Source: Eubacteriales bacterium (lineage in GTDB: Bacteria > Bacillota > Clostridia > Oscillospirales > CAG-272). Taken from it: a DNA stretch of 26,502 bases. How positions within the stretch are numbered: the stretch's first letter is position 1; each line of letters begins with the position of its first letter. This document shows positions 15,103-21,537 of the stretch, in pieces. A program made the translations under genes and the position numbers. The stretch lies in the NCBI GenBank assembly GCA_045546635.1, contig JAZQDF010000034.1, forward strand, positions 1 to 26,502, written 5' to 3'. Below the pieces are notes generated by a model that was not told where the DNA came from, ran no database searches, and worked only from the letters and a program-made list of their open reading frames with translations.

Positions 15103-16359
15103 TTAACCGATTACAGCGGGTGTGATTGTGCAGGTGGCACGAATTCTCGCCACGTCGGAATTGAGGAGGGTGCCCTTCTCGTAAAGCTCGGCGGCGAGCT
15201 TGTCAAGAAATTCGCGGTTTTCGGCGAGGATCTCCTTCGCCTTGAAGATAAATCTCTCAAGCTCGGCGGCAACAACGATTTCGCTCCTGCTGTCAAGCAG
15301 CTCGGACTCTGAGCCGAAGCCGAGATTAGACACGCCGTATGTACCGATTCGTTTCGTGGACTTATCAATATGGCTAAGGGCAGAAACCAGGTCGGAGGAG
15401 GTTCCCGAGGCTACCTTACCGTACTTAAGCTCGGACGCCGCCTTGCCACCCAGGGCAATAAGAATCACATGTGGCCTTCTGTCAAAATCAAGGCAACGGA
15501 GCATAAATCCGCCACGCTCGGTGCGGGGAGAGGAGCAGACGCTGACGATACCCACGCTGCCCTCCTTGATAACGTCGCTGATTACGGCGTGTCCCGCCTC
15601 GTGATAGGCAATCTCCTCACGCTCCTTGGGCGAGCGTTTCTCACAGTTGACCGTCACGCCGTAGGCCTCGCGGAGAGTGGCGTCCACAAGATGCCTCATC
15701 TCGATCCTTTCACAGCGGTCGTGTGCGGCGGAGATTGCCGCAAGGTTGATAACGCTGTCAAGCTCGGCACAGCTTTTACCTGCGAGCATCTTAGAGGTGT
15801 CATCCATATCGACGTCCTCCGAAATAGGCTTCTGACCTACGTAATACCTTACGATTTGCTCACCGTCCTCGCGGGTGGGGTGGTTAACCACAATATAGCG
15901 GTCAAATCTGCCCGCACGTACAAGGCTATCGGGCAGGTGAAAGCTCTCGTTTACCGTTGCGATAAGGAATACGCTCTTGCCCTTCACCGAGTCGATAAGC
16001 GACTGAAGGACGACGAACTCCTCCTGACTGTTGTCCGAGGGGGCAAACTTGTCCATATCGTCAAGCAGGATAATGGACGGAGCATTTTCTGCCGCCTGCT
16101 CAAAGGCACGTGTCATATCATCAATAAACTCCTTGGTCTCCTTGCTTCTGCGGACGGTGTAGGAGGGCACGCCGCACTCCTCCATAAACGAGGTGGCAAT
16201 CAGCGTCTTGCCGAGGCCGGGCTCACCCTGAAGGACGATACCGCTGGGCAGGCTTGCTCCCAGGGCCCTGTAGATTTCGGGATTCTTGAGAATATCCATA
16301 ATCTCAAGCATCTCGTTTTTAATGTGGTCGTAGCCGATGATTCTGTCAAAAGCACTCAT
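15103..16359 (-). CDS. Soluble FtsH-like protein: AAA+ ATPase plus peptidase M41 domain, no membrane anchor
   Basis: Walker A GEPGLGKT, Walker B LLDDMD, SRH LVRAGRFDR, Zn motif AYHEAGH, GTSSDL. AAGGAG RBS; the N-terminus starts directly at the AAA domain. Confidence 0.85.
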   Translation of the reverse strand: MSAFDRIIGYDHIKNEMLEIMDILKNPEIYRALGASLPSGIVLQGEPGLGKTLIATSFMEECGVPSYTVRRSKETKEFIDDMTRAFEQAAENAPSIILLDDMDKFAPSDNSQEEFVVLQSLIDSVKGKSVFLIATVNESFHLPDSLVRAGRFDRYIVVNHPTREDGEQIVRYYVGQKPISEDVDMDDTSKMLAGKSCAELDSVINLAAISAAHDRCERIEMRHLVDATLREAYGVTVNCEKRSPKEREEIAYHEAGHAVISDVIKEGSVGIVSVCSSPRTERGGFMLRCLDFDRRPHVILIALGGKAASELKYGKVASGTSSDLVSALSHIDKSTKRIGTYGVSNLGFGSESELLDSRSEIVVAAELERFIFKAKEILAENREFLDKLAAELYEKGTLLNSDVARIRATCTITPAVIG

Positions 16360-16427
16360 TTGTTTATCTCCTTTTAATTAAATTGTCATAGGCGTATAGC
16401 TTGGGCGGGATTTTTTCTTACGTGACT

Positions 16428-16461
16428 ATTATAGCAATTCTTCCGTCCGCTTTTCGGGACA
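16428..16461 (-). promoter_or_regulatory. Operator copy 1 plus -10 box for the FtsH-like gene
   Basis: - strand: TGTCCCGAAAAGCGGACG (16461-16444)-10 nt-TATAAT (16433-16428). No -35 consensus. Confidence 0.75.
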
Positions 16462-16516
16462 TTAATAAACGCGGCGGCGAAAAAAGAGAAATTTTCTTAT
16501 ATTTTCACAAAAATAA

Positions 16517-16568
16517 TGTCCCAAATTTGTCGCATAACCGTTGAAAAGGGCGAAAAAAGTGGTATAAT
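16517..16568 (+). promoter_or_regulatory. Operator copy 2 (degenerate) just upstream of a full promoter for the hypothetical-WYL operon
   Basis: TGTCCC-AAATTT-GTCGCA (16517-16534), then TTGAAA(16541-16546)-16-TATAAT(16563-16568). Confidence 0.55.
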
Positions 16569-16626
16569 GTATTTAGCAGCAAAAAATAACGATGCTATTA
16601 CGAACAAAAAATGACGGAGGTTATTT

Positions 16627-17733
16627 ATGAATATCAATGAATTTATAGATAAAATCAGGGAATTAAACAACAAATCCTATTCATACGGAAATGAAATTTT
16701 TTATCTTATGGGAAGATCATCTGACATCCTGACAGACCGAATCAAGCTTGAGGGTGCTATGTGGATTATCGGAAGATCCTACGCGGCTTCTCCACAAAGA
16801 AGGAGCTATGGCACAACCGAAAACAGCTTTACACAAACGAACGATAAATACCACGACAGAGACGGGAGGGAAGGTGCGAATCGTCCCATCTGGCCGGTGA
16901 AAACTCAAAATGACGGTAGAGAAGGATTTTTTGACGAGGTTGCAAGGAGCCTCTCTCTCTCCTGCCTTAACGGAATACTACCGCACAGGGCTACAAAATA
17001 TAATTTTAAGCAAGTTATTATAAGAAAAAAGAAAAACAATAAAATAGAGTCGGTAAAAATTGACGAGAACGATCTTAACCTTCTGATAAAGTCTATTACC
17101 GCCGTTTTATCATTTAATAAGAGTCTTAGTAAAGCCATAGAAGAATTTGACGATGTGCCTGTTGGAAACATTTTTGACGGGAAGGCCGTCAATTGCAACA
17201 ATCACATCTCCTTTTCAAGCAAATTTCTGCACTTTATCTTCCCTGATATTGTTTTTATAATTGACTCCTATGCCTTTGATGGCGGCTGTGCTTTGTTTAA
17301 CGGTAAAGAAGATGAAAAAAACAGAAGATTTATCGTCACGCCTCCCAACGAGAACGACTTTTTTGATAATAGCGTATACGAGCAATTTGATAAGAACGTT
17401 GTAAAAGAAATAATAAATCAGATAAACGATAAAATAAAGGATGGCTCTGCCGGCGAGGGCGAGAGCAATATCTCGTCGACCGACGATGACGGTCTTGATG
17501 GAAAGAAATATATCGCTCACTGCGTTCGTTCCTATCTGATGGGTGTATTTCTGAAAAATCAAGGTATATCTCCTATTAATCATATTAAGAACGATCAGAC
17601 GTTTCAGCCTATGCCCCGACTTGTAGATTTGGTTTATCTGAATATTAAAAAACCCATATCCGAAAAGGAAGAAAAGTATCAGGAAATGCTGTCACTACTG
17701 TATTACACACCAGGTCATAACAACGGAACATAA
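16627..17733 (+). CDS. Hypothetical protein, AT-rich; weak resemblance to a helix-hairpin-helix glycosylase segment
   Basis: 368-aa ORF with GGAGG RBS. Motifs MWIIGRSYAASPQRR and SFSSKFLHFIFPDIVFIIDS. Visibly more AT-rich than flanking genes. Confidence 0.75.
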   Translation: MNINEFIDKIRELNNKSYSYGNEIFYLMGRSSDILTDRIKLEGAMWIIGRSYAASPQRRSYGTTENSFTQTNDKYHDRDGREGANRPIWPVKTQNDGREGFFDEVARSLSLSCLNGILPHRATKYNFKQVIIRKKKNNKIESVKIDENDLNLLIKSITAVLSFNKSLSKAIEEFDDVPVGNIFDGKAVNCNNHISFSSKFLHFIFPDIVFIIDSYAFDGGCALFNGKEDEKNRRFIVTPPNENDFFDNSVYEQFDKNVVKEIINQINDKIKDGSAGEGESNISSTDDDGLDGKKYIAHCVRSYLMGVFLKNQGISPINHIKNDQTFQPMPRLVDLVYLNIKKPISEKEEKYQEMLSLLYYTPGHNNGT

Positions 17734-17751
17734 GAATAGGAGAAAAAATAT

Positions 17752-18726
17752 ATGGAACCCAAAAAGCTCGCCCTGCTTCGCATCTGGCAGATACTGCTGA
17801 AGCACAGCGATTACGATCATCCTCTGACGCAGGAGGATATTATCAGATACCTTAACGACGATTACGGAATAGAGATAGAGAGAAAGGCGGTAGGAAAAAA
17901 TATCGCCGACCTTCGCGATGCGGGAATTGACATCGGCTCTCGCCGTGCGGGAAGCTATATCAACAGCCGCGAGTTTGAGGACTCGGAGCTGAGGCTGCTG
18001 ATAGACGGCGTGCTTCAGAGCAAGCATATTACCGCCCATCACTCAAAGGATCTTATCGACAGGCTTTGCGGTCTGTCAAACAAATACTTCCGCTCCCACG
18101 TGAAGAACGTGTACTCGGTAAACGATTGGAGCAAGACCGACAACCAGGCCCTCTTCTACAACATAGACGTTATTGACGAGGCAATTGCCGAGGGCAAGCA
18201 GGTGCAGTACGACTACAACAAGTACGGCATTGATGCAAAGCTGCACCGCTCCTCCTTCCAGCGTGTAAGCCCCTATCAGCTTATACTGCACAACCAGCGG
18301 TACTATCTTATGGGATACAGCGGATATTGGGGACACATTACCTTCCACCGCCTTGACCGTATCACGAATATGCGGATATACGACTATCCCATTACACCCG
18401 TAACGAAGGTCAAGGGCTACGAGAACGGAATAGATTTCAAGAAGATCGCCTCTACAATGCCCTATATGTATACCGACACGCCCGAGCGAATCGAGTTTAT
18501 TGCAGACAAATTCATCGTGGATCAAATAGTAGATTGGTTCGGCAGGGATATAAAAATGACCGCCGTTGCCGAAGATCCGAAGAAGGTCAGGGTGGAGCTT
18601 ATGTCAAGCCCGCTGGCTATGGAGCATTGGGCGTTGCAGTATCTTGACCACGTAGAGATCCTTAAGCCACAGAGCCTGCGTGACAAAATAAGAGAAAGTC
18701 TCCTCAAGGGCCTTGAAAAGTACTGA
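17752..18726 (+). CDS. WYL-domain transcriptional regulator (wHTH-WYL-WCX)
   Basis: wHTH LLRIWQIL...HPLTQEDII...IERKAVGKNIADLR, WYL RVSPYQLILHNQRYYLMGY...FHRLDRI, WCX IVDQIVDWFG...WALQYLDHVEILKPQSLR. Confidence 0.93.
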   Translation: MEPKKLALLRIWQILLKHSDYDHPLTQEDIIRYLNDDYGIEIERKAVGKNIADLRDAGIDIGSRRAGSYINSREFEDSELRLLIDGVLQSKHITAHHSKDLIDRLCGLSNKYFRSHVKNVYSVNDWSKTDNQALFYNIDVIDEAIAEGKQVQYDYNKYGIDAKLHRSSFQRVSPYQLILHNQRYYLMGYSGYWGHITFHRLDRITNMRIYDYPITPVTKVKGYENGIDFKKIASTMPYMYTDTPERIEFIADKFIVDQIVDWFGRDIKMTAVAEDPKKVRVELMSSPLAMEHWALQYLDHVEILKPQSLRDKIRESLLKGLEKY

Positions 18727-18748
18727 TTGGACTGATTTTTTCCCATTG

Positions 18749-18782
18749 TGTCCCAAAAAATGGACACGCCCTTTGATATATT
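18749..18782 (+). promoter_or_regulatory. Operator copy 3 plus -10 box for the 271-aa gene
   Basis: TGTCCC-AAAAAA-TGGACA (18749-18766)-10 nt-TATATT (18777-18782) with TGn. Confidence 0.7.
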
Positions 18783-18816
18783 TATATTGAAAGGATAATT
18801 GGGAAGGATAAATGCT

Positions 18817-19632
18817 ATGATTTTGAAAAACATTACTATTCAAAATCTCGGATCTATCGATTACTTATCACAGGATTTTTCAGACCGACTTAATATAATT
18901 CACACCCACCGGCCCGACGAGCTGTTTTATGCAATAAGGCTGACGCTGAACCATAAGATACCCACGCAGAAAATTATAGCCGATCAAAGCACGAGGATCG
19001 AGGCGAAGGTAAGGCTCGACGGCAGGGATTACAGCGTAACCGTTGCCCCCGACAGATCGGGCATACTGCGGCTTATCTGCTACGGCGAGGGCGGACTTAT
19101 GGATACCGATCAATACCTGTATCTGTCATCGCATTGCTACGAGCAGGATAACGCCGACACCTACGACGGAGACGATCGGGACTCGGTGCCGAAATTTTTG
19201 AAATATTTAAACGAGGATTGCTATTTTGAACCGCGTGAGCTGTCAGAGAGGACGGATGGACTGTCTGATATAAAGGCCTTCCGCAGACAGCTGCGGCTGT
19301 TTGCCGATAAATTTGAGCCGCGTCTTTTACGCGATGGAAAGCAATACGAGATAACGGTAGACGAAAATGGCAGGTATGACCTACGAGGACGAAGCTCACC
19401 AGACGAGGCTGTGCATCTCAGCGAGAGCGAGGACGTGCTGTTTAGTTATCTATGCTTTTTATATACGGCAAAATTCTGGAGCGATTTTGACGAGATTCGT
19501 GATTTTAACCGGATAAAAAAGCCGATTATCGTAAAATCCTTTTTTGAGAGATTAGACGAGGGGATCGACACGTCGGAAATTTTAGATGAGACAGAAAAGG
19601 CAGAAAGACAGGTAATTATACTGAAAAGATAG
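18817..19632 (+). CDS. Hypothetical protein resembling a degenerate SMC/Rad50-type ABC ATPase head
   Basis: Start reassigned to ATG 18817. MILKNITIQNLGSI...LNII start typical of SMC-like ATPases but no GxxGxGKS/T; LSESE and PIIVKSFFERLD where the signature, Walker B and D-loop would be. Confidence 0.55.
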   Translation: MILKNITIQNLGSIDYLSQDFSDRLNIIHTHRPDELFYAIRLTLNHKIPTQKIIADQSTRIEAKVRLDGRDYSVTVAPDRSGILRLICYGEGGLMDTDQYLYLSSHCYEQDNADTYDGDDRDSVPKFLKYLNEDCYFEPRELSERTDGLSDIKAFRRQLRLFADKFEPRLLRDGKQYEITVDENGRYDLRGRSSPDEAVHLSESEDVLFSYLCFLYTAKFWSDFDEIRDFNRIKKPIIVKSFFERLDEGIDTSEILDETEKAERQVIILKR

Positions 19633-19653
19633 TTTTTCTTGAAAACACAAAAA

Positions 19654-19692
19654 CCGGGCCGAAGGCATTTTGCCTTCGGCTCGGCTTTCTTT
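19654..19692. terminator. Bidirectional intrinsic terminator
   Basis: ccgggccgaaggca-ttt-tgccttcggctcgg followed by ctttcttt and preceded by an A run. Confidence 0.85.
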
Positions 19693-19813
19693 AACCGTCC
19701 GTTCCTACGGGATCTATCCTTGCTGCCTTTACTCTTACCGACCGAGTGAAAATCGGCAACGGAGGACAGAAGCGAGTTAAGCTCGGGCAGGTTATGGAGC
19801 TTGTTTACACCCC

Positions 19814-20260
19814 TCATTTATATTTTTCAAGAGCTGAAAACAGCTTGTTATAAACCAGCTGATTAGGATAATATCTGTAATCCGCGAAAATCTCTATACC
19901 GCACCCGAAGAAATGCTGCATTATTGCGGCGGCAGCGGCGGCACTTCGGCTCTGACCGAAATCGCACTGGCAGATAATATCAAGACCGTCCTCTCTCGCC
20001 TTATAGATAAACTCTGCGAGGCTGTCTGCCTCTGTAAAATAGCTGTCAAGGGTATAGCCGAAATCGGGCAGTATCTCAATATCGATATCGGGTATTCCGA
20101 CGAAGAACACACGCTCGGCACAGCCGTGAAAATCCACACGGCGTCCCTCTCCCCCGCCGTTCATATTCGGGGTAAAAAAGCTTATTACCGCACATTTTTT
20201 AGGGAACCCCTTCCCTATAAGCTCGGTGATGGCTGCTCTTGATAGGATCTCGATCTTCAT
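19814..20260 (-). CDS. Cys-based (PTP/dual-specificity-like) phosphatase
   Basis: CX5R loop IICQCDFGQSRSAAAA, downstream YPNQLVY, AAGGAG RBS. Confidence 0.8.
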   Translation of the reverse strand: MKIEILSRAAITELIGKGFPKKCAVISFFTPNMNGGGEGRRVDFHGCAERVFFVGIPDIDIEILPDFGYTLDSYFTEADSLAEFIYKAREDGLDIICQCDFGQSRSAAAAAAIMQHFFGCGIEIFADYRYYPNQLVYNKLFSALEKYK

Positions 20261-20352
20261 ATTTTCTCTCCTTTAATAATATTAACAACAGAACGGGGCC
20301 GGCTGCCGTCAGAGTACGACGGTAGGTGTCGCGAATGAAGAATTCCTGACTG

Positions 20353-20381
20353 TTGCATTTGCCGATGTTTTATGGTATAAT
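20353..20381 (+). promoter_or_regulatory. Additional full sigma-A promoter upstream of the 337-aa gene
   Basis: TTGCAT(20353-20358)-17-TATAAT(20376-20381) with TGn. Confidence 0.55.
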
Positions 20382-20382
20382 T

Positions 20383-20432
20383 ATTATAATCAAGCTTATG
20401 TCCCGAAAAGAGGACGGTACAAGCAGTATAAT
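20383..20432. promoter_or_regulatory. Operator copy 4 flanked on both sides by -10 boxes (bidirectional)
   Basis: ATTATA(20383-20388)-10 nt-TGTCCCGAAAAGAGGACG(20399-20416)-10 nt-TATAAT(20427-20432). Confidence 0.8.
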
Positions 20433-20523
20433 AATTACGGAAACGGGGCGGCGACCACCTTTTCCTGCTTTCAGACCTATAATAAGGCTCGCAGAAAATT
20501 CTAATTTAGCATCGGAGGGTATT

Positions 20524-21537
20524 ATGATTAACAGAAAGGTAATTCACAAGACTTTTGGAGAAGGAGTCATTATCGGATTCGAGAATAATATTGCAACGGT
20601 ACGGTTTTCCGAGCGAGACGTCGATTTCCGTTATCCCGACGTATTCGCAAGATATCTTCGCTTTACCGACGAGGCTCTTCAGAGCGAGGCCGAGGAGATG
20701 GCGATAGAGTCTATAAAAATAAAGGAAGAGGAAAAAAAGAAAAAAGAGAGGGAGCGAGCAGAGGAGCTCTACCGCCACTATCAGCATCAGCTTGCCGAAA
20801 AGACGGGAAAACGCAAGCCCTCGGCGACACAGCTCAAATATGAGAAGGAGGGCAACCTTGCCTTCAAGTGTAATTTCTGTAACGGTGGCTGCTCATCCGA
20901 CTGCATCGGCTTCAAGGGAGTTTGCTCGCCGGAGACAATAAGGCATAATATCGAGAAGGAGAAGCGTACCTGGTGCTCTAACGAGGCCTCGGGCTGTGGC
21001 CGTTATTACCGCGGACTTATCGATTACGGTACGCTCTCTCAGATGCATAACGACTCCTTCGTTTGCTATGAATCAAGGATGCTCATAGACTGGACGGCCT
21101 TTGCCGGAGAGAATCTTGACAGCACGGGAGTACAGCGGGCGAGAAGAATAATGGGTGCAAAGCAAAACGGCCTTGCCGTTCTGACAACCGTGTTCCCGAA
21201 CGAGACCGACCGCGTTATTTTCGGCGTATTTATAACCGCCGAGACCGACGAGGGTGACGAGCGTTCTGCCGGCTATGTAAAGGCCGATCCCCAATATACC
21301 GTCGAGCTTACGCCAAGCGAGGCAAGAGGACTTAAGTTCTGGGATTATCACGAGAACTCCAACGGCAGCGTAGGACAGTGGAGCTCGGGACTTTACCGCT
21401 ATCTTAACAACGACGAGTGCGTCAGAATTCTGAAGCGGATAGTTGAGATCAAGACGGGTGCGGAAAAGACGAAGGCAGAAAAAGTGCTCCTCCGTTACGC
21501 CGCCCTCAAAGGCATCTCAAAGGAGGAGCTTGCATAA
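20524..21537 (+). CDS. Hypothetical protein: N-terminal Tudor/SH3-like domain, charged helix, Cys-rich domain
   Basis: Start reassigned to ATG 20524 (GGAGG RBS). KVIHKTFGEGVII pattern, KEEEKKKKERER coil, eight Cys from KCNFC to FVCYES. Confidence 0.75.
   Translation: MINRKVIHKTFGEGVIIGFENNIATVRFSERDVDFRYPDVFARYLRFTDEALQSEAEEMAIESIKIKEEEKKKKERERAEELYRHYQHQLAEKTGKRKPSATQLKYEKEGNLAFKCNFCNGGCSSDCIGFKGVCSPETIRHNIEKEKRTWCSNEASGCGRYYRGLIDYGTLSQMHNDSFVCYESRMLIDWTAFAGENLDSTGVQRARRIMGAKQNGLAVLTTVFPNETDRVIFGVFITAETDEGDERSAGYVKADPQYTVELTPSEARGLKFWDYHENSNGSVGQWSSGLYRYLNNDECVRILKRIVEIKTGAEKTKAEKVLLRYAALKGISKEELA

What the first reader, a model, noticed from the sequence alone, without database searches (positions are those of the whole stretch)
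16428..20432. Candidate WYL regulon: an 18-bp pseudo-palindrome sits exactly 10 nt upstream of the -10 box at four promoters
Seen: four copies of TGTCCC-N6-(G/A/T)GGAC(A/G)-like sequence, all intergenic, at 16444-16461, 16517-16534 (degenerate), 18749-18766 and 20399-20416. Copy 1 (reverse strand) and copy 4 match at 17 of 18 positions. Copy 1 is followed after 10 nt by TATAAT, copy 3 after 10 nt by TATATT, and copy 4 has TATAAT 10 nt away on both strands. The motif covers the position where a -35 box should be. Known: WYL regulators sense nucleic-acid ligands; PafBC and DriD activate DNA-damage genes, BrxR and CapW repress defence genes, and the mycobacterial PafBC motif is likewise a hexamer 10 nt upstream of the -10 box. 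Inference: the local WYL protein (17752-18726) activates four genes that are otherwise unrelated, making a compact, probably undescribed stress or phage-response module.
Basis: partly seen in the sequence, partly recalled or inferred. Interest (0 to 1): 0.88.

Follow-up and report, generated by a model that had tools for sequence, protein, structure and literature searches.

The report
WYL regulator docking sites at promoters
Three 18-bp palindromes, each exactly 10 nt from a -10 box, are most likely docking sites where the island's WYL sensor-regulator switches on four unrelated genes; the same site-plus-promoter code is used across a whole order of gut Clostridia, mostly in front of anti-phage genes.

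Summary
TGTCC-N8-GGAC palindromes at 16444-61, 18749-66 and 20399-416 each lie exactly 10 nt from a TATAAT-like -10 box, giving four oriented promoters with no -35.

- **Fixed spacing.** In 54 loci carrying orthologues of the local WYL gene, 48 such sites recur. Of these, 45 have a strong -10 at exactly 10 nt, and no other spacing exceeds 4. They precede at least 15 unrelated gene families.
- **Link to the regulator.** Across the order, a tight version of the pattern gives 159 matches against 18 for the reversed control. It occurs in 67 of 94 genomes with a WYL homologue and in 7 of 57 without.
- **Protein type.** The protein models as wHTH, three-helix bundle, WYL, WCX. It is nearest to the activators DriD and PafBC, not the repressors BrxR and CapW.
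- **Site geometry.** The site position matches DriD and the PafBC -26 element.
- **Copy 2.** It is not a degenerate copy. It is a separate conserved element upstream of the WYL operon's own canonical promoter.

Best reading: a DriD-like activator regulon of defence and stress genes. Activation is inferred, not shown, and repression is not excluded. This is a new clostridial member of a known kind. The scan has already met the same system on other DNA (e1-3979812, e1-4396263).

The parts
15103..16359 (-). Target gene 1: membrane-less FtsH-like protein (AAA + peptidase M41), 418 aa
   Evidence: Pfam AAA 1.3e-20 and Peptidase_M41 1.3e-16. Homologues sit behind the same site type in 7 loci.
16428..16433 (-). 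-10 box TATAAT (preceded by TGc) of the FtsH-like gene promoter
   Evidence: Read. It lies 10 nt from the site. It is the low end of the genome-wide composite-pattern match C34:16428-16460.
16444..16461 (-). Palindromic site, copy 1 (TGTCCCGAAAAGCGGACG on the - strand)
16517..16534 (+).
   Evidence: The same element, followed by 6 nt, a TTGAAA-like -35 and a -10, is found in 15 orthologous loci.
16541..16568 (+). Canonical sigma-A-type promoter TTGAAA-N16-TGgTATAAT of the unk368-WYL operon
   Evidence: Promoter scan scores it 11 of 12 with TG.
16627..17733 (+). Unknown 368-aa gene, first gene of the WYL operon
   Evidence: ORF. No Pfam, NCBIfam or PADLOC hit. Homologues occupy the same position in L050 and L055.
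17752..18726 (+). Regulator: wHTH, three-helix bundle, WYL, WCX; 324 aa
   Evidence: Pfam WYL 1.8e-9 and WCX 9e-6. AF2 model has pLDDT 79. DriD and PafBC are the best PDB matches.
18749..18766 (.). Palindromic site, copy 3 (TGTCCCAAAAAATGGACA)
18777..18788 (+). -10 box TATATT at 10 nt (18777-82, preceded by TGa), plus a second tandem TATATT (18783-88)
18817..19632 (+). Target gene 2: unknown protein of about 271 aa (ATG 18817; cluster 'u264'), followed by a terminator at 19654-19684
   Evidence: ORF. The cluster has 18 members in 17 loci, usually after an AAA+ gene. Terminator.
19814..20260 (-). Target gene 3: 148-aa protein with a weak dual-specificity-phosphatase match
   Evidence: Pfam DSPc 8.7e-4, below the cut-off. 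The homologue in L091 sits behind the same site.
20353..20381 (+). Additional sigma-A-like promoter TTGCAT-N17-TGgTATAAT pointing through copy 4
   Evidence: Read. The -35 matches only 3 of 6, so the scan does not list it. It would place copy 4 at about +11 to +28 of its transcript.
20383..20388 (-). -10 box TATAAT of the 148-aa gene promoter
20399..20416 (.). Palindromic site, copy 4, shared by two divergent promoters
20427..20432 (+). -10 box TATAAT of the 337-aa gene promoter (no TGn, no -35)
20524..21537 (+). Target gene 4: unknown 337-aa protein
   Evidence: ORF. No family hit.

Best explanation
The 18-bp palindromes (consensus tGT[C/A]C-nn-WWWW-nn-G[G/T]ACA) are the DNA sites of the island's homodimeric wHTH-3HB-WYL-WCX regulator (17752-18726).

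Each site is centred about 19 bp upstream of the -10 hexamer, roughly position -31.5. It therefore covers the place of the missing -35 and leaves the -10 free. Its promoter-proximal half-site sits at about -23 to -27.

By analogy with DriD and PafBC, the regulator is proposed to work as follows (inferred). It senses a nucleic-acid signal in its WYL domain, probably ssDNA made during DNA damage or phage attack. It then binds the site and recruits sigma-A RNA polymerase. That switches on the FtsH-like protease gene, the 271-aa gene, the phosphatase-like gene, the 337-aa gene, and at least one gene elsewhere in the genome.

The regulator's own operon is read from a normal -35/-10 promoter, which carries a variant half-palindromic element just upstream.

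Shown here: the sites, the fixed spacing, the absence of a -35, the link to WYL genes, and the protein class. Inferred: binding, the ligand, and the direction of control.
For: 1. **Fixed geometry.** Loci with WYL orthologues (57-96% identity) contain 146 oriented GTMC-N8-GKAC cores. Of these, 48 have TAnnnT exactly 10 nt after the 18-mer, and 45 of those match TATAAT at 5 of 6 or better. Every other spacing from 0 to 30 has 4 or fewer strong hits.
2. **Unrelated targets.** The 48 sites precede at least 15 unrelated gene families. The spacers are not conserved, so the spacing is maintained by selection rather than inherited.
3. **No -35.** In 38 non-redundant promoters the best -35 match is 3 of 6 or less in 37, and 13 also lack TGn. 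The WYL operon promoters in the same organisms do have TTGAAA-type -35 boxes.
4. **Link to WYL, family level.** 72 WYL+ genomes give 131 matches against 57 for the reversed control. 129 WYL- genomes give 88 against 97 (hand tally).
5. **Link to WYL, order level.** The tight pattern gives 159 matches against 18 control. At least one site is present in 67 of 94 WYL+ genomes and 7 of 57 WYL- genomes. Many sites abut the WYL gene.
6. **Protein class.** The profile search's best PDB hits are DriD (E 8e-9) and then PafC/PafBC; BrxR and CapW do not appear at E<=0.01. Foldseek ranks 1-15 are DriD/PafBC (E 4e-13 to 1.5e-9), with BrxR/CapW at ranks 16-32. The AF2 model has three helices (77-121) between wHTH and WYL. 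That is the DriD-type linker, not the helix-beta-hairpin of BrxR/CapW (PMC10853764).
7. **Literature geometry.**
   - DriD sites overlap the -35 position at an identical distance from the -10, in promoters lacking a -35 (PMC13004042).
   - The PafBC motif is tGTCgg-N10-tAnnnT, with its element at -23 to -28 (PMC8635444).
   - Repressor sites instead overlap the -10 (CapW) or lie just downstream of it (BrxR).
Against: - No binding, expression or TSS data exist.
- 25 of 38 promoters carry an extended -10 (TGn) with a near-consensus TATAAT. In Firmicutes such promoters can be active without a -35, so a protein bound at -23 to -40 could equally act as a repressor.
- WYL regulators inside defence islands that have been tested (BrxR, CapW) are repressors.
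- At copy 4, a sigma-A-like promoter (20353-20381) points through the site. This is a roadblock-type arrangement like BrxR's.
- The genome is an 80%-complete MAG, so the regulon is incompletely seen.
Confidence: 0.6

Rival explanations
1. The WYL protein is a BrxR/CapW-style repressor. In the resting cell it sits on the palindromes and blocks RNA polymerase at extended -10 promoters, and a ligand (ssDNA) releases it.
For: - 25 of 38 promoters have TGn plus a near-consensus -10 and could be self-sufficient.
- The neighbourhood is a defence island with GmrSD, dGTPase, Cas4/DUF2779 and SNF2 genes, like BrxR/CapW contexts (PMC9122601, PMC9122588).
- One site serves two divergent promoters.
- An upstream promoter reads through copy 4.
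Against: - A repressor has no need for the invariant 10-nt spacing seen at 45 or more promoters of unrelated genes.
- 13 of 38 promoters have neither a -35 nor TGn.
- Known WYL repressor sites overlap or follow the -10, whereas here the -10 is always left free.
- The protein has the DriD-type three-helix linker and matches DriD/PafBC about 5 orders of magnitude better than BrxR/CapW.
- In this clade the variant element at the regulator's own promoter lies upstream of the core promoter and does not overlap it.
Confidence: 0.22
2. Dual mode. The same protein activates the -35-less promoters downstream of each site. It also acts as a roadblock or competitor for neighbouring canonical promoters, such as 20353-20381, or modulates its own promoter through the variant element.
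For: - A canonical-like promoter reads through copy 4.
- A conserved variant element lies 6 nt upstream of the -35 of the WYL operon promoter in 15 loci. In a more distant subclade it lies 10 nt from the -10.
Against: The upstream promoter at copy 4 has a weak -35 (3 of 6), and I did not test whether it is conserved in relatives. There are no expression data.
Confidence: 0.1
3. The palindrome is bound by some other factor, or is a chance or RNA-level feature such as a hairpin, and the WYL gene is a bystander.
For: Binding was not measured. Copy 3 can form a 7-bp hairpin (-9.1 kcal/mol).
Against: - The motif is enriched only where WYL homologues are present and is often adjacent to them.
- The sites lie upstream of the -10, so they are not in the transcripts they precede.
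- Copies 1 and 4 fold weakly (-5.5 kcal/mol, z about -1.4).
- There is no Rfam match.
- A spacer of 10 nt is incompatible with an alternative sigma factor reading the half-site as a -35.
Confidence: 0.05

Closest known systems
DriD of Caulobacter crescentus (homodimeric WYL activator; PMC9186387, PMC10853764, PMC13004042)
   Same: - Domain order wHTH, three-helix bundle, WYL, WCX, and about 325 aa.
- Best sequence-profile and fold match.
- A pseudo-palindromic site laid over the -35 position, at one fixed distance from the -10, in promoters without a -35.
- From the published 'optimised -35' oligo, the DriD site centre lies about 18.5 bp from the -10. Here it is 19 bp.
   Different: - Only 16-20% identity.
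- The motif is TGTCC-N8-GGACA (18 bp), not ATACGAC-N7-GTCGTAT (21 bp).
- The host is Clostridia, not Alphaproteobacteria.
- Targets seen here are island or defence-type genes rather than didA, bapE, recJ and dnaG.
- A single site is used by two divergent promoters.
- ssDNA sensing and activation are untested.
PafBC of mycobacteria (sigma adaptation; PMC8635444)
   Same: - The GTC-containing element sits at -23 to -28, with N10 to a TAnnnT -10 and no -35.
- The promoter-proximal half-site here occupies the same place.
- It is the second-best structural match.
   Different: - PafBC is a heterodimer or fusion reading one asymmetric hexamer.
- Here there is one gene and a two-fold symmetric site, and the proximal half-site is in the opposite orientation.
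- There is no pup-proteasome context.
DdaA of Moraxellaceae (WYL activator of DNA-damage and anti-phage genes; PMC12392091)
   Same: One WYL regulator whose motif precedes scattered CRISPR-Cas, restriction-modification and other defence loci. Order-wide, I saw the motif before Cas3, Cas5d-Csd1, Cas9, HsdM and a Y-family polymerase.
   Different: - The DdaA motif is CGWCA-N5-TGWCG, about 50 bp upstream of the TSS.
- Here a different motif sits at a strict -31.5 position.
- A core DNA-repair regulon (recA, uvrA and so on) was not found; the one recA hit was a false positive.
BrxR / CapW WYL repressors of defence islands (PMC9122601, PMC9122588, PMC11662680)
   Same: A wHTH-WYL-WCX dimer encoded inside variable defence islands, with palindromic sites in the promoters of neighbouring genes.
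   Different: - Their linker is a helix-beta-hairpin, and they are about 285 aa.
- Their sites overlap or follow the -10.
- They are weaker fold matches and give no profile hit.

Membership tests
DriD-type homodimeric WYL activators | Domain order wHTH, linker, three-helix bundle, WYL, WCX | tested here: met
   Pfam finds WYL and WCX. The AF2 model has wHTH at 1-70, helices at 77-89, 95-106 and 111-121, WYL strands at 149-213, and WCX at 245-323. The criterion comes from PMC10853764.
DriD-type homodimeric WYL activators | Detectable homology to DriD, closer than to the WYL repressors | tested here: met
   In the profile search, DriD chains score E 8e-9 to 4e-8 and BrxR/CapW do not appear at E<=0.01. 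Foldseek gives DriD 4e-13 against BrxR/CapW about 1e-7.
DriD-type homodimeric WYL activators | Pseudo-palindromic site over the -35 position, at one fixed distance from the -10, in promoters lacking a -35 | tested here: met
   Spacing is exactly 10 nt at 48 sites, with 4 or fewer strong hits at any other spacing. The best -35 match is 3 of 6 or less in 37 of 38 promoters.
DriD-type homodimeric WYL activators | ssDNA bound by the WYL domain switches on DNA binding | not testable with these tools
   The only observation is that the RLDR-type WYL signature (R200, D202 invariant) aligns with DriD.
DriD-type homodimeric WYL activators | Activates transcription by contacting RNA polymerase | not testable with these tools
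PafBC (sigma adaptation) | Heterodimer (PafB+PafC) or fusion reading a single asymmetric -26 element | tested here: not met
   The regulator is a single 324-aa gene and the site is two-fold symmetric.
PafBC (sigma adaptation) | Element at -23 to -28, 10 nt upstream of TAnnnT, with no -35 | tested here: met
   The proximal half-site GKACA ends 10 nt before the -10. PafBC's position is taken from PMC8635444.
BrxR/CapW WYL repressors | Helix-beta-hairpin linker between wHTH and WYL; about 285 aa | tested here: not met
   The model's linker is all-helical, and the protein is 324 aa. The criterion comes from PMC10853764.
BrxR/CapW WYL repressors | Operator overlapping or just downstream of the -10 of the regulated promoter | tested here: not met
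   The sites end 10 nt upstream of the -10. The only exception is the possible read-through promoter at 20353-20381.
BrxR/CapW WYL repressors | Encoded in, and controlling, variable phage-defence islands | tested here: met
   Neighbours in orthologous loci include GmrSD pairs, dGTPase, Cas4/DUF2779 nuclease, REase-ARP, SNF2 helicase and AAA_15/21.
DdaA-type combined damage/defence regulon | Motif before both core DNA-repair genes and defence systems | tested here: inconclusive
   The defence targets are clear. Among repair-type genes, only a Y-family polymerase (L149, intergenic site) and UvrD-like helicases were found. The recA hit was false.

The most novel reading that the evidence does not exclude
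An order-wide (Oscillospirales) SOS-independent alarm regulon. DriD-like WYL activators read one shared promoter code (GTCC-N8-GGACA, then 10 nt, then the -10). Through it they switch on CRISPR-Cas, restriction, retron-like and helicase-nuclease defences, a translesion polymerase, and small single-pass membrane proteins that may be DidA-like division inhibitors. Mobile islands such as this one bring their own paralogous regulator and plug new cargo genes into the same code.
Probability: 0.4. Interest if true: 0.75.

Novelty: new member of a known kind. Interest (0 to 1): 0.6.

Why it matters
WYL activators with this promoter architecture have been worked out only in Actinobacteria (PafBC) and Proteobacteria (DriD, DdaA). 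I found no paper describing one in Clostridia.

Here a simple sequence rule predicts which genes a major order of gut and rumen bacteria switches on together. Many of those genes are uncharacterised cargo that sits beside known anti-phage systems.

That has two practical uses. It gives a cheap way to nominate new defence or stress genes. It also gives a clean natural experiment on why a fixed 10-nt geometry is needed.

The finding does not define a new kind of system.

Tried and rejected
- **RNA evidence for TSSs.** No expression data were obtained.
- **Complex prediction.** The job (WYL dimer plus 32-bp site) was not folded and gives no verdict. It is not evidence either way.
- **Mistyped pattern.** A class-level scan was run with a 9-nt inner spacer. 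It found 39 matches in 401 genomes, against about twice as many reversed controls by my count, and none in the own genome. It is useful only as an accidental negative control.
- **recA as a target.** The site 'upstream' of recA in L143 lies inside a PrmC-like coding region. I rejected it as a chance match. About 11% of order-level hits are expected to be of this kind (18 control against 159).
- **RNA element or terminator reading.** There is no Rfam hit, the hairpins are weak at two of three sites, and the sites lie upstream of the -10.
- **Alternative sigma factor reading GKACA as a -35.** I rejected this because the spacer is 10 nt and the site is two-fold symmetric.
- **A very loose genome scan** was uninformative.


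Full report
**What is in the window.**

The stretch 15103-21537 is a six-gene island lying between a GH5 cellulase gene and the M20 peptidase/AlaRS genes. Its genes are:
- a membrane-less FtsH-like AAA+/M41 gene (15103-16359, - strand);
- an unknown 368-aa gene and a wHTH-WYL-WCX regulator forming one operon (16627-18726, + strand);
- an unknown gene of about 271 aa (18817-19632, + strand);
- a 148-aa gene with a weak phosphatase-like match (19814-20260, - strand);
- an unknown 337-aa gene (20524-21537, + strand).

The genome is a 1.7-Mb, 80%-complete MAG. Records holding orthologues are titled Eubacteriales, Oscillospiraceae, Acutalibacteraceae or Faecousia MAGs and come from animal guts and rumen.

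Copy 1 on the - strand and copy 4 differ at one base.
- The core with up to one mismatch occurs 12 times in the window, against 3.95 +/- 2.3 in shuffles.
- The exact core occurs 4 times in the genome, 3 of them here.
- With the N10-TAnnnT extension, the genome has six matches. Four are the island promoters. One is a convincing fifth site on contig C221 (TGTCCCAAAATGCGTACA, 10 nt, TATAAT), in front of a 267-aa gene. One is a likely chance hit.
- Other spacings give 0-3 matches.

**The spacing is a rule, not a local accident.**

I collected 54 loci with orthologues of the WYL protein at 57-96% identity.
- They hold 146 oriented GTMC-N8-GKAC cores.
- A TAnnnT hexamer follows at exactly 10 nt in 48 of them, and 45 of those match TATAAT at 5 of 6 or better.
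- No other spacing from 0 to 30 has more than 4 strong hits.

The 48 sites precede at least 15 unrelated families:
- a 669-aa AAA+ protein, in 15 loci;
- FtsH-like proteins, in 7 loci;
- the 271-aa family;
- a metallophosphatase;
- the phosphatase-like 148-aa family;
- an SNF2 helicase;
- an AAA_15/21 ATPase;
- several unknown families.

After removing near-duplicates, 38 promoters remain:
- The consensus is tGT(C/A)Cc-n-WWWW-nn-G(G/T)ACA-Taa....TG.-TATAAT.
- The inner four positions are A or T only.
- The proximal half-site is better kept than the distal one (A18 in 31 of 38; T1 in 22 of 38).
- TGn is present in 25 of 38.
- The best -35 match is 3 of 6 or less in 37 of 38.
- The 10-nt spacers are otherwise unconserved, so the distance is kept by selection.

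In 201 genomes of the family, a loose pattern gave the following (my tally):
- 131 matches against 57 reversed controls in the 72 genomes with a WYL homologue (E<=1e-20);
- 88 matches against 97 controls in the 129 genomes without one.

In 151 genomes spread over 30 families of the order, a tighter pattern gave 159 matches against 18 controls. A profile of the WYL clade hits 94 of those genomes. At least one site is present in 67 of 94 WYL+ genomes (149 sites) and in 7 of 57 WYL- genomes (10 sites, about the control rate). Kinship inflates any formal test, but the split is seen across most families.

Many sites abut the WYL gene itself (G098, G104, G008, G107, G124, G105, G709, G615, G710).

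The order-wide sites belong mostly to a more distant paralogous 'core' WYL at about 30% identity. Its site variant is GTCCGTTTTAT(C/G)GGACA. The window's regulator is a patchily distributed island-borne paralogue that uses the same half-sites and spacing.

**What is controlled.**

Around the window's clade, the neighbourhood is a variable defence island. It contains:
- a dGTPase;
- a Cas4/DUF2779 nuclease;
- REase-ARP;
- paired GmrSD genes;
- an SNF2 helicase;
- MoxR-AAA with a VWA/DUF2201 partner;
- a ClpP-like protein.

Family- and order-wide, the first genes after the site include:
- Cas3, Cas5d-Csd1 and Cas9;
- HsdM;
- a retron-like reverse transcriptase;
- a PLD nuclease;
- UvrD/CoiA-type helicase-nucleases;
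- ADP-ribosylglycohydrolases;
- a Y-family polymerase, whose site is clearly intergenic.

A recA hit proved to be a chance match inside a coding region, so I do not claim a core repair regulon.

**Which way does it work.**

Four lines point to activation.
1. An invariant, helical-face-specific distance to the -10 at dozens of unrelated promoters is what RNAP-contacting activators need and repressors do not.
2. The targets lack a -35, while the WYL operon promoters in the same organisms have one. 13 of 38 targets also lack TGn.
3. The protein is of the activator type.
   - The profile search finds DriD and then PafBC, but not BrxR or CapW.
   - Foldseek ranks DriD/PafBC 1-15 and BrxR/CapW 16-32.
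   - The model has a three-helix linker. PMC10853764 gives this as the mark of DriD-like activators, against the helix-beta-hairpin of the repressors.
4. The geometry equals that of the two solved activators.
   - DriD's palindrome lies over the -35 position at one fixed distance. By my reading of their oligos, the centre is about 18.5 bp from the -10, against 19 bp here.
   - PafBC's element is tGTCgg-N10-tAnnnT at -23 to -28.
   - CapW sites instead overlap the -10, and BrxR's repeat lies just after it.

Three points count against.
- Two thirds of the promoters have an extended, near-consensus -10 that might fire alone.
- Tested defence-island WYL proteins are repressors.
- At copy 4, a sigma-A-like promoter (20353-20381) reads through the site.

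My odds are: activator about 0.6-0.7; repressor about 0.2; mixed about 0.1; WYL not the binder about 0.05.

**Copy 2.**

It is not a decayed copy. The element TGT(C/A)CC-N5-TGTC(G/A)CA, followed by 6 nt, a TTGAAA-like -35, 16-17 nt and TGnTATAAT, is conserved upstream of the WYL operon in 15 loci. In a more distant subclade the same element sits 10 nt from the -10. It probably mediates autoregulation. The direction of that control is unknown.

**Known or new.**

The kind is known (DriD, PafBC, DdaA). This lineage, its motif and its order-wide use in Clostridia were not found in the papers searched.

Earlier agents of this scan reached similar readings on other genomes (e1-3979812, e1-4396263, e1-5196275, e1-5272323). 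The present tests were made independently on this window and its relatives.

Noticed in passing
G000 contig C221:17220-17252 (- strand); locus L132:8221-8253: A fifth composite site in the same genome, outside the window: TGTCCCAAAATGCGTACA, 10 nt, TGaTATAAT. It lies before a 267-aa gene with only a weak DUF6939 match. The regulon is therefore not confined to the island.
   Followed up: partly
window 20353-20381 (+): TTGCAT-N17-TGgTATAAT points rightwards through copy 4. It could give basal transcription of the 337-aa gene, and a protein bound at the site would block it. I did not check whether it is conserved in relatives.
   Followed up: partly
window 18761-18788 (+): The proximal half-site TGGACA resembles a -35 (5 of 6). 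A second tandem TATATT lies 16 nt after it, so copy 3 could also work as an ordinary promoter. Such a second -10 is rare at the other sites.
   Followed up: partly
L035:8851-13665; also L048, L050, L054, L056 and others: A conserved downstream module recurs in this WYL clade: a 669-aa AAA+ protein (AAA plus AAA_lid_6), sometimes an FtsH-like protein, the 271-aa family, a ClpP-like protein and a 133-aa protein. It looks like a proteolysis-type module of unknown function. The window has only part of it.
   Followed up: partly
L153:159-311, L154:2334-2486, L156:2351-2503, L119:2803-2961, L128:2809-2964, L099:2833-3009 and others: Order-wide, the first ORF after many sites is a 50-70-aa protein with one N-terminal hydrophobic helix and a basic tail. 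This recalls the small division inhibitor DidA, which is controlled by DriD. The ORFs come from my own crude caller and were not validated.
   Followed up: no
L134:162-983, L139:1591-2415, L092:2177-2992, L098:2126-2938, L105:1282-2094: A 271-275-aa family beginning MAFKIGF is the most recurrent larger target of the order-wide site, found in 5 of 44 sampled. It has no Pfam match.
   Followed up: no
G169 contigs C55:576-608, C65:16626-16658, C130:512-544, C140:9744-9776: Four identical copies of one site-plus-promoter lie near contig ends in one genome. This suggests the cassette sits on a repeated or mobile element there.
   Followed up: no
L143:95-127 (G615:C11): A perfect composite match lies inside a PrmC-like methyltransferase coding region, upstream of recA. 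It is a chance hit and a warning that about one in nine pattern matches is noise.
   Followed up: yes
window 18817-18860: The 271-aa target starts MILKNITIQNLGSI, which resembles the N-terminus of RecF/SMC/OLD-type ABC ATPases. However, the protein is short and has no family hit.
   Followed up: no
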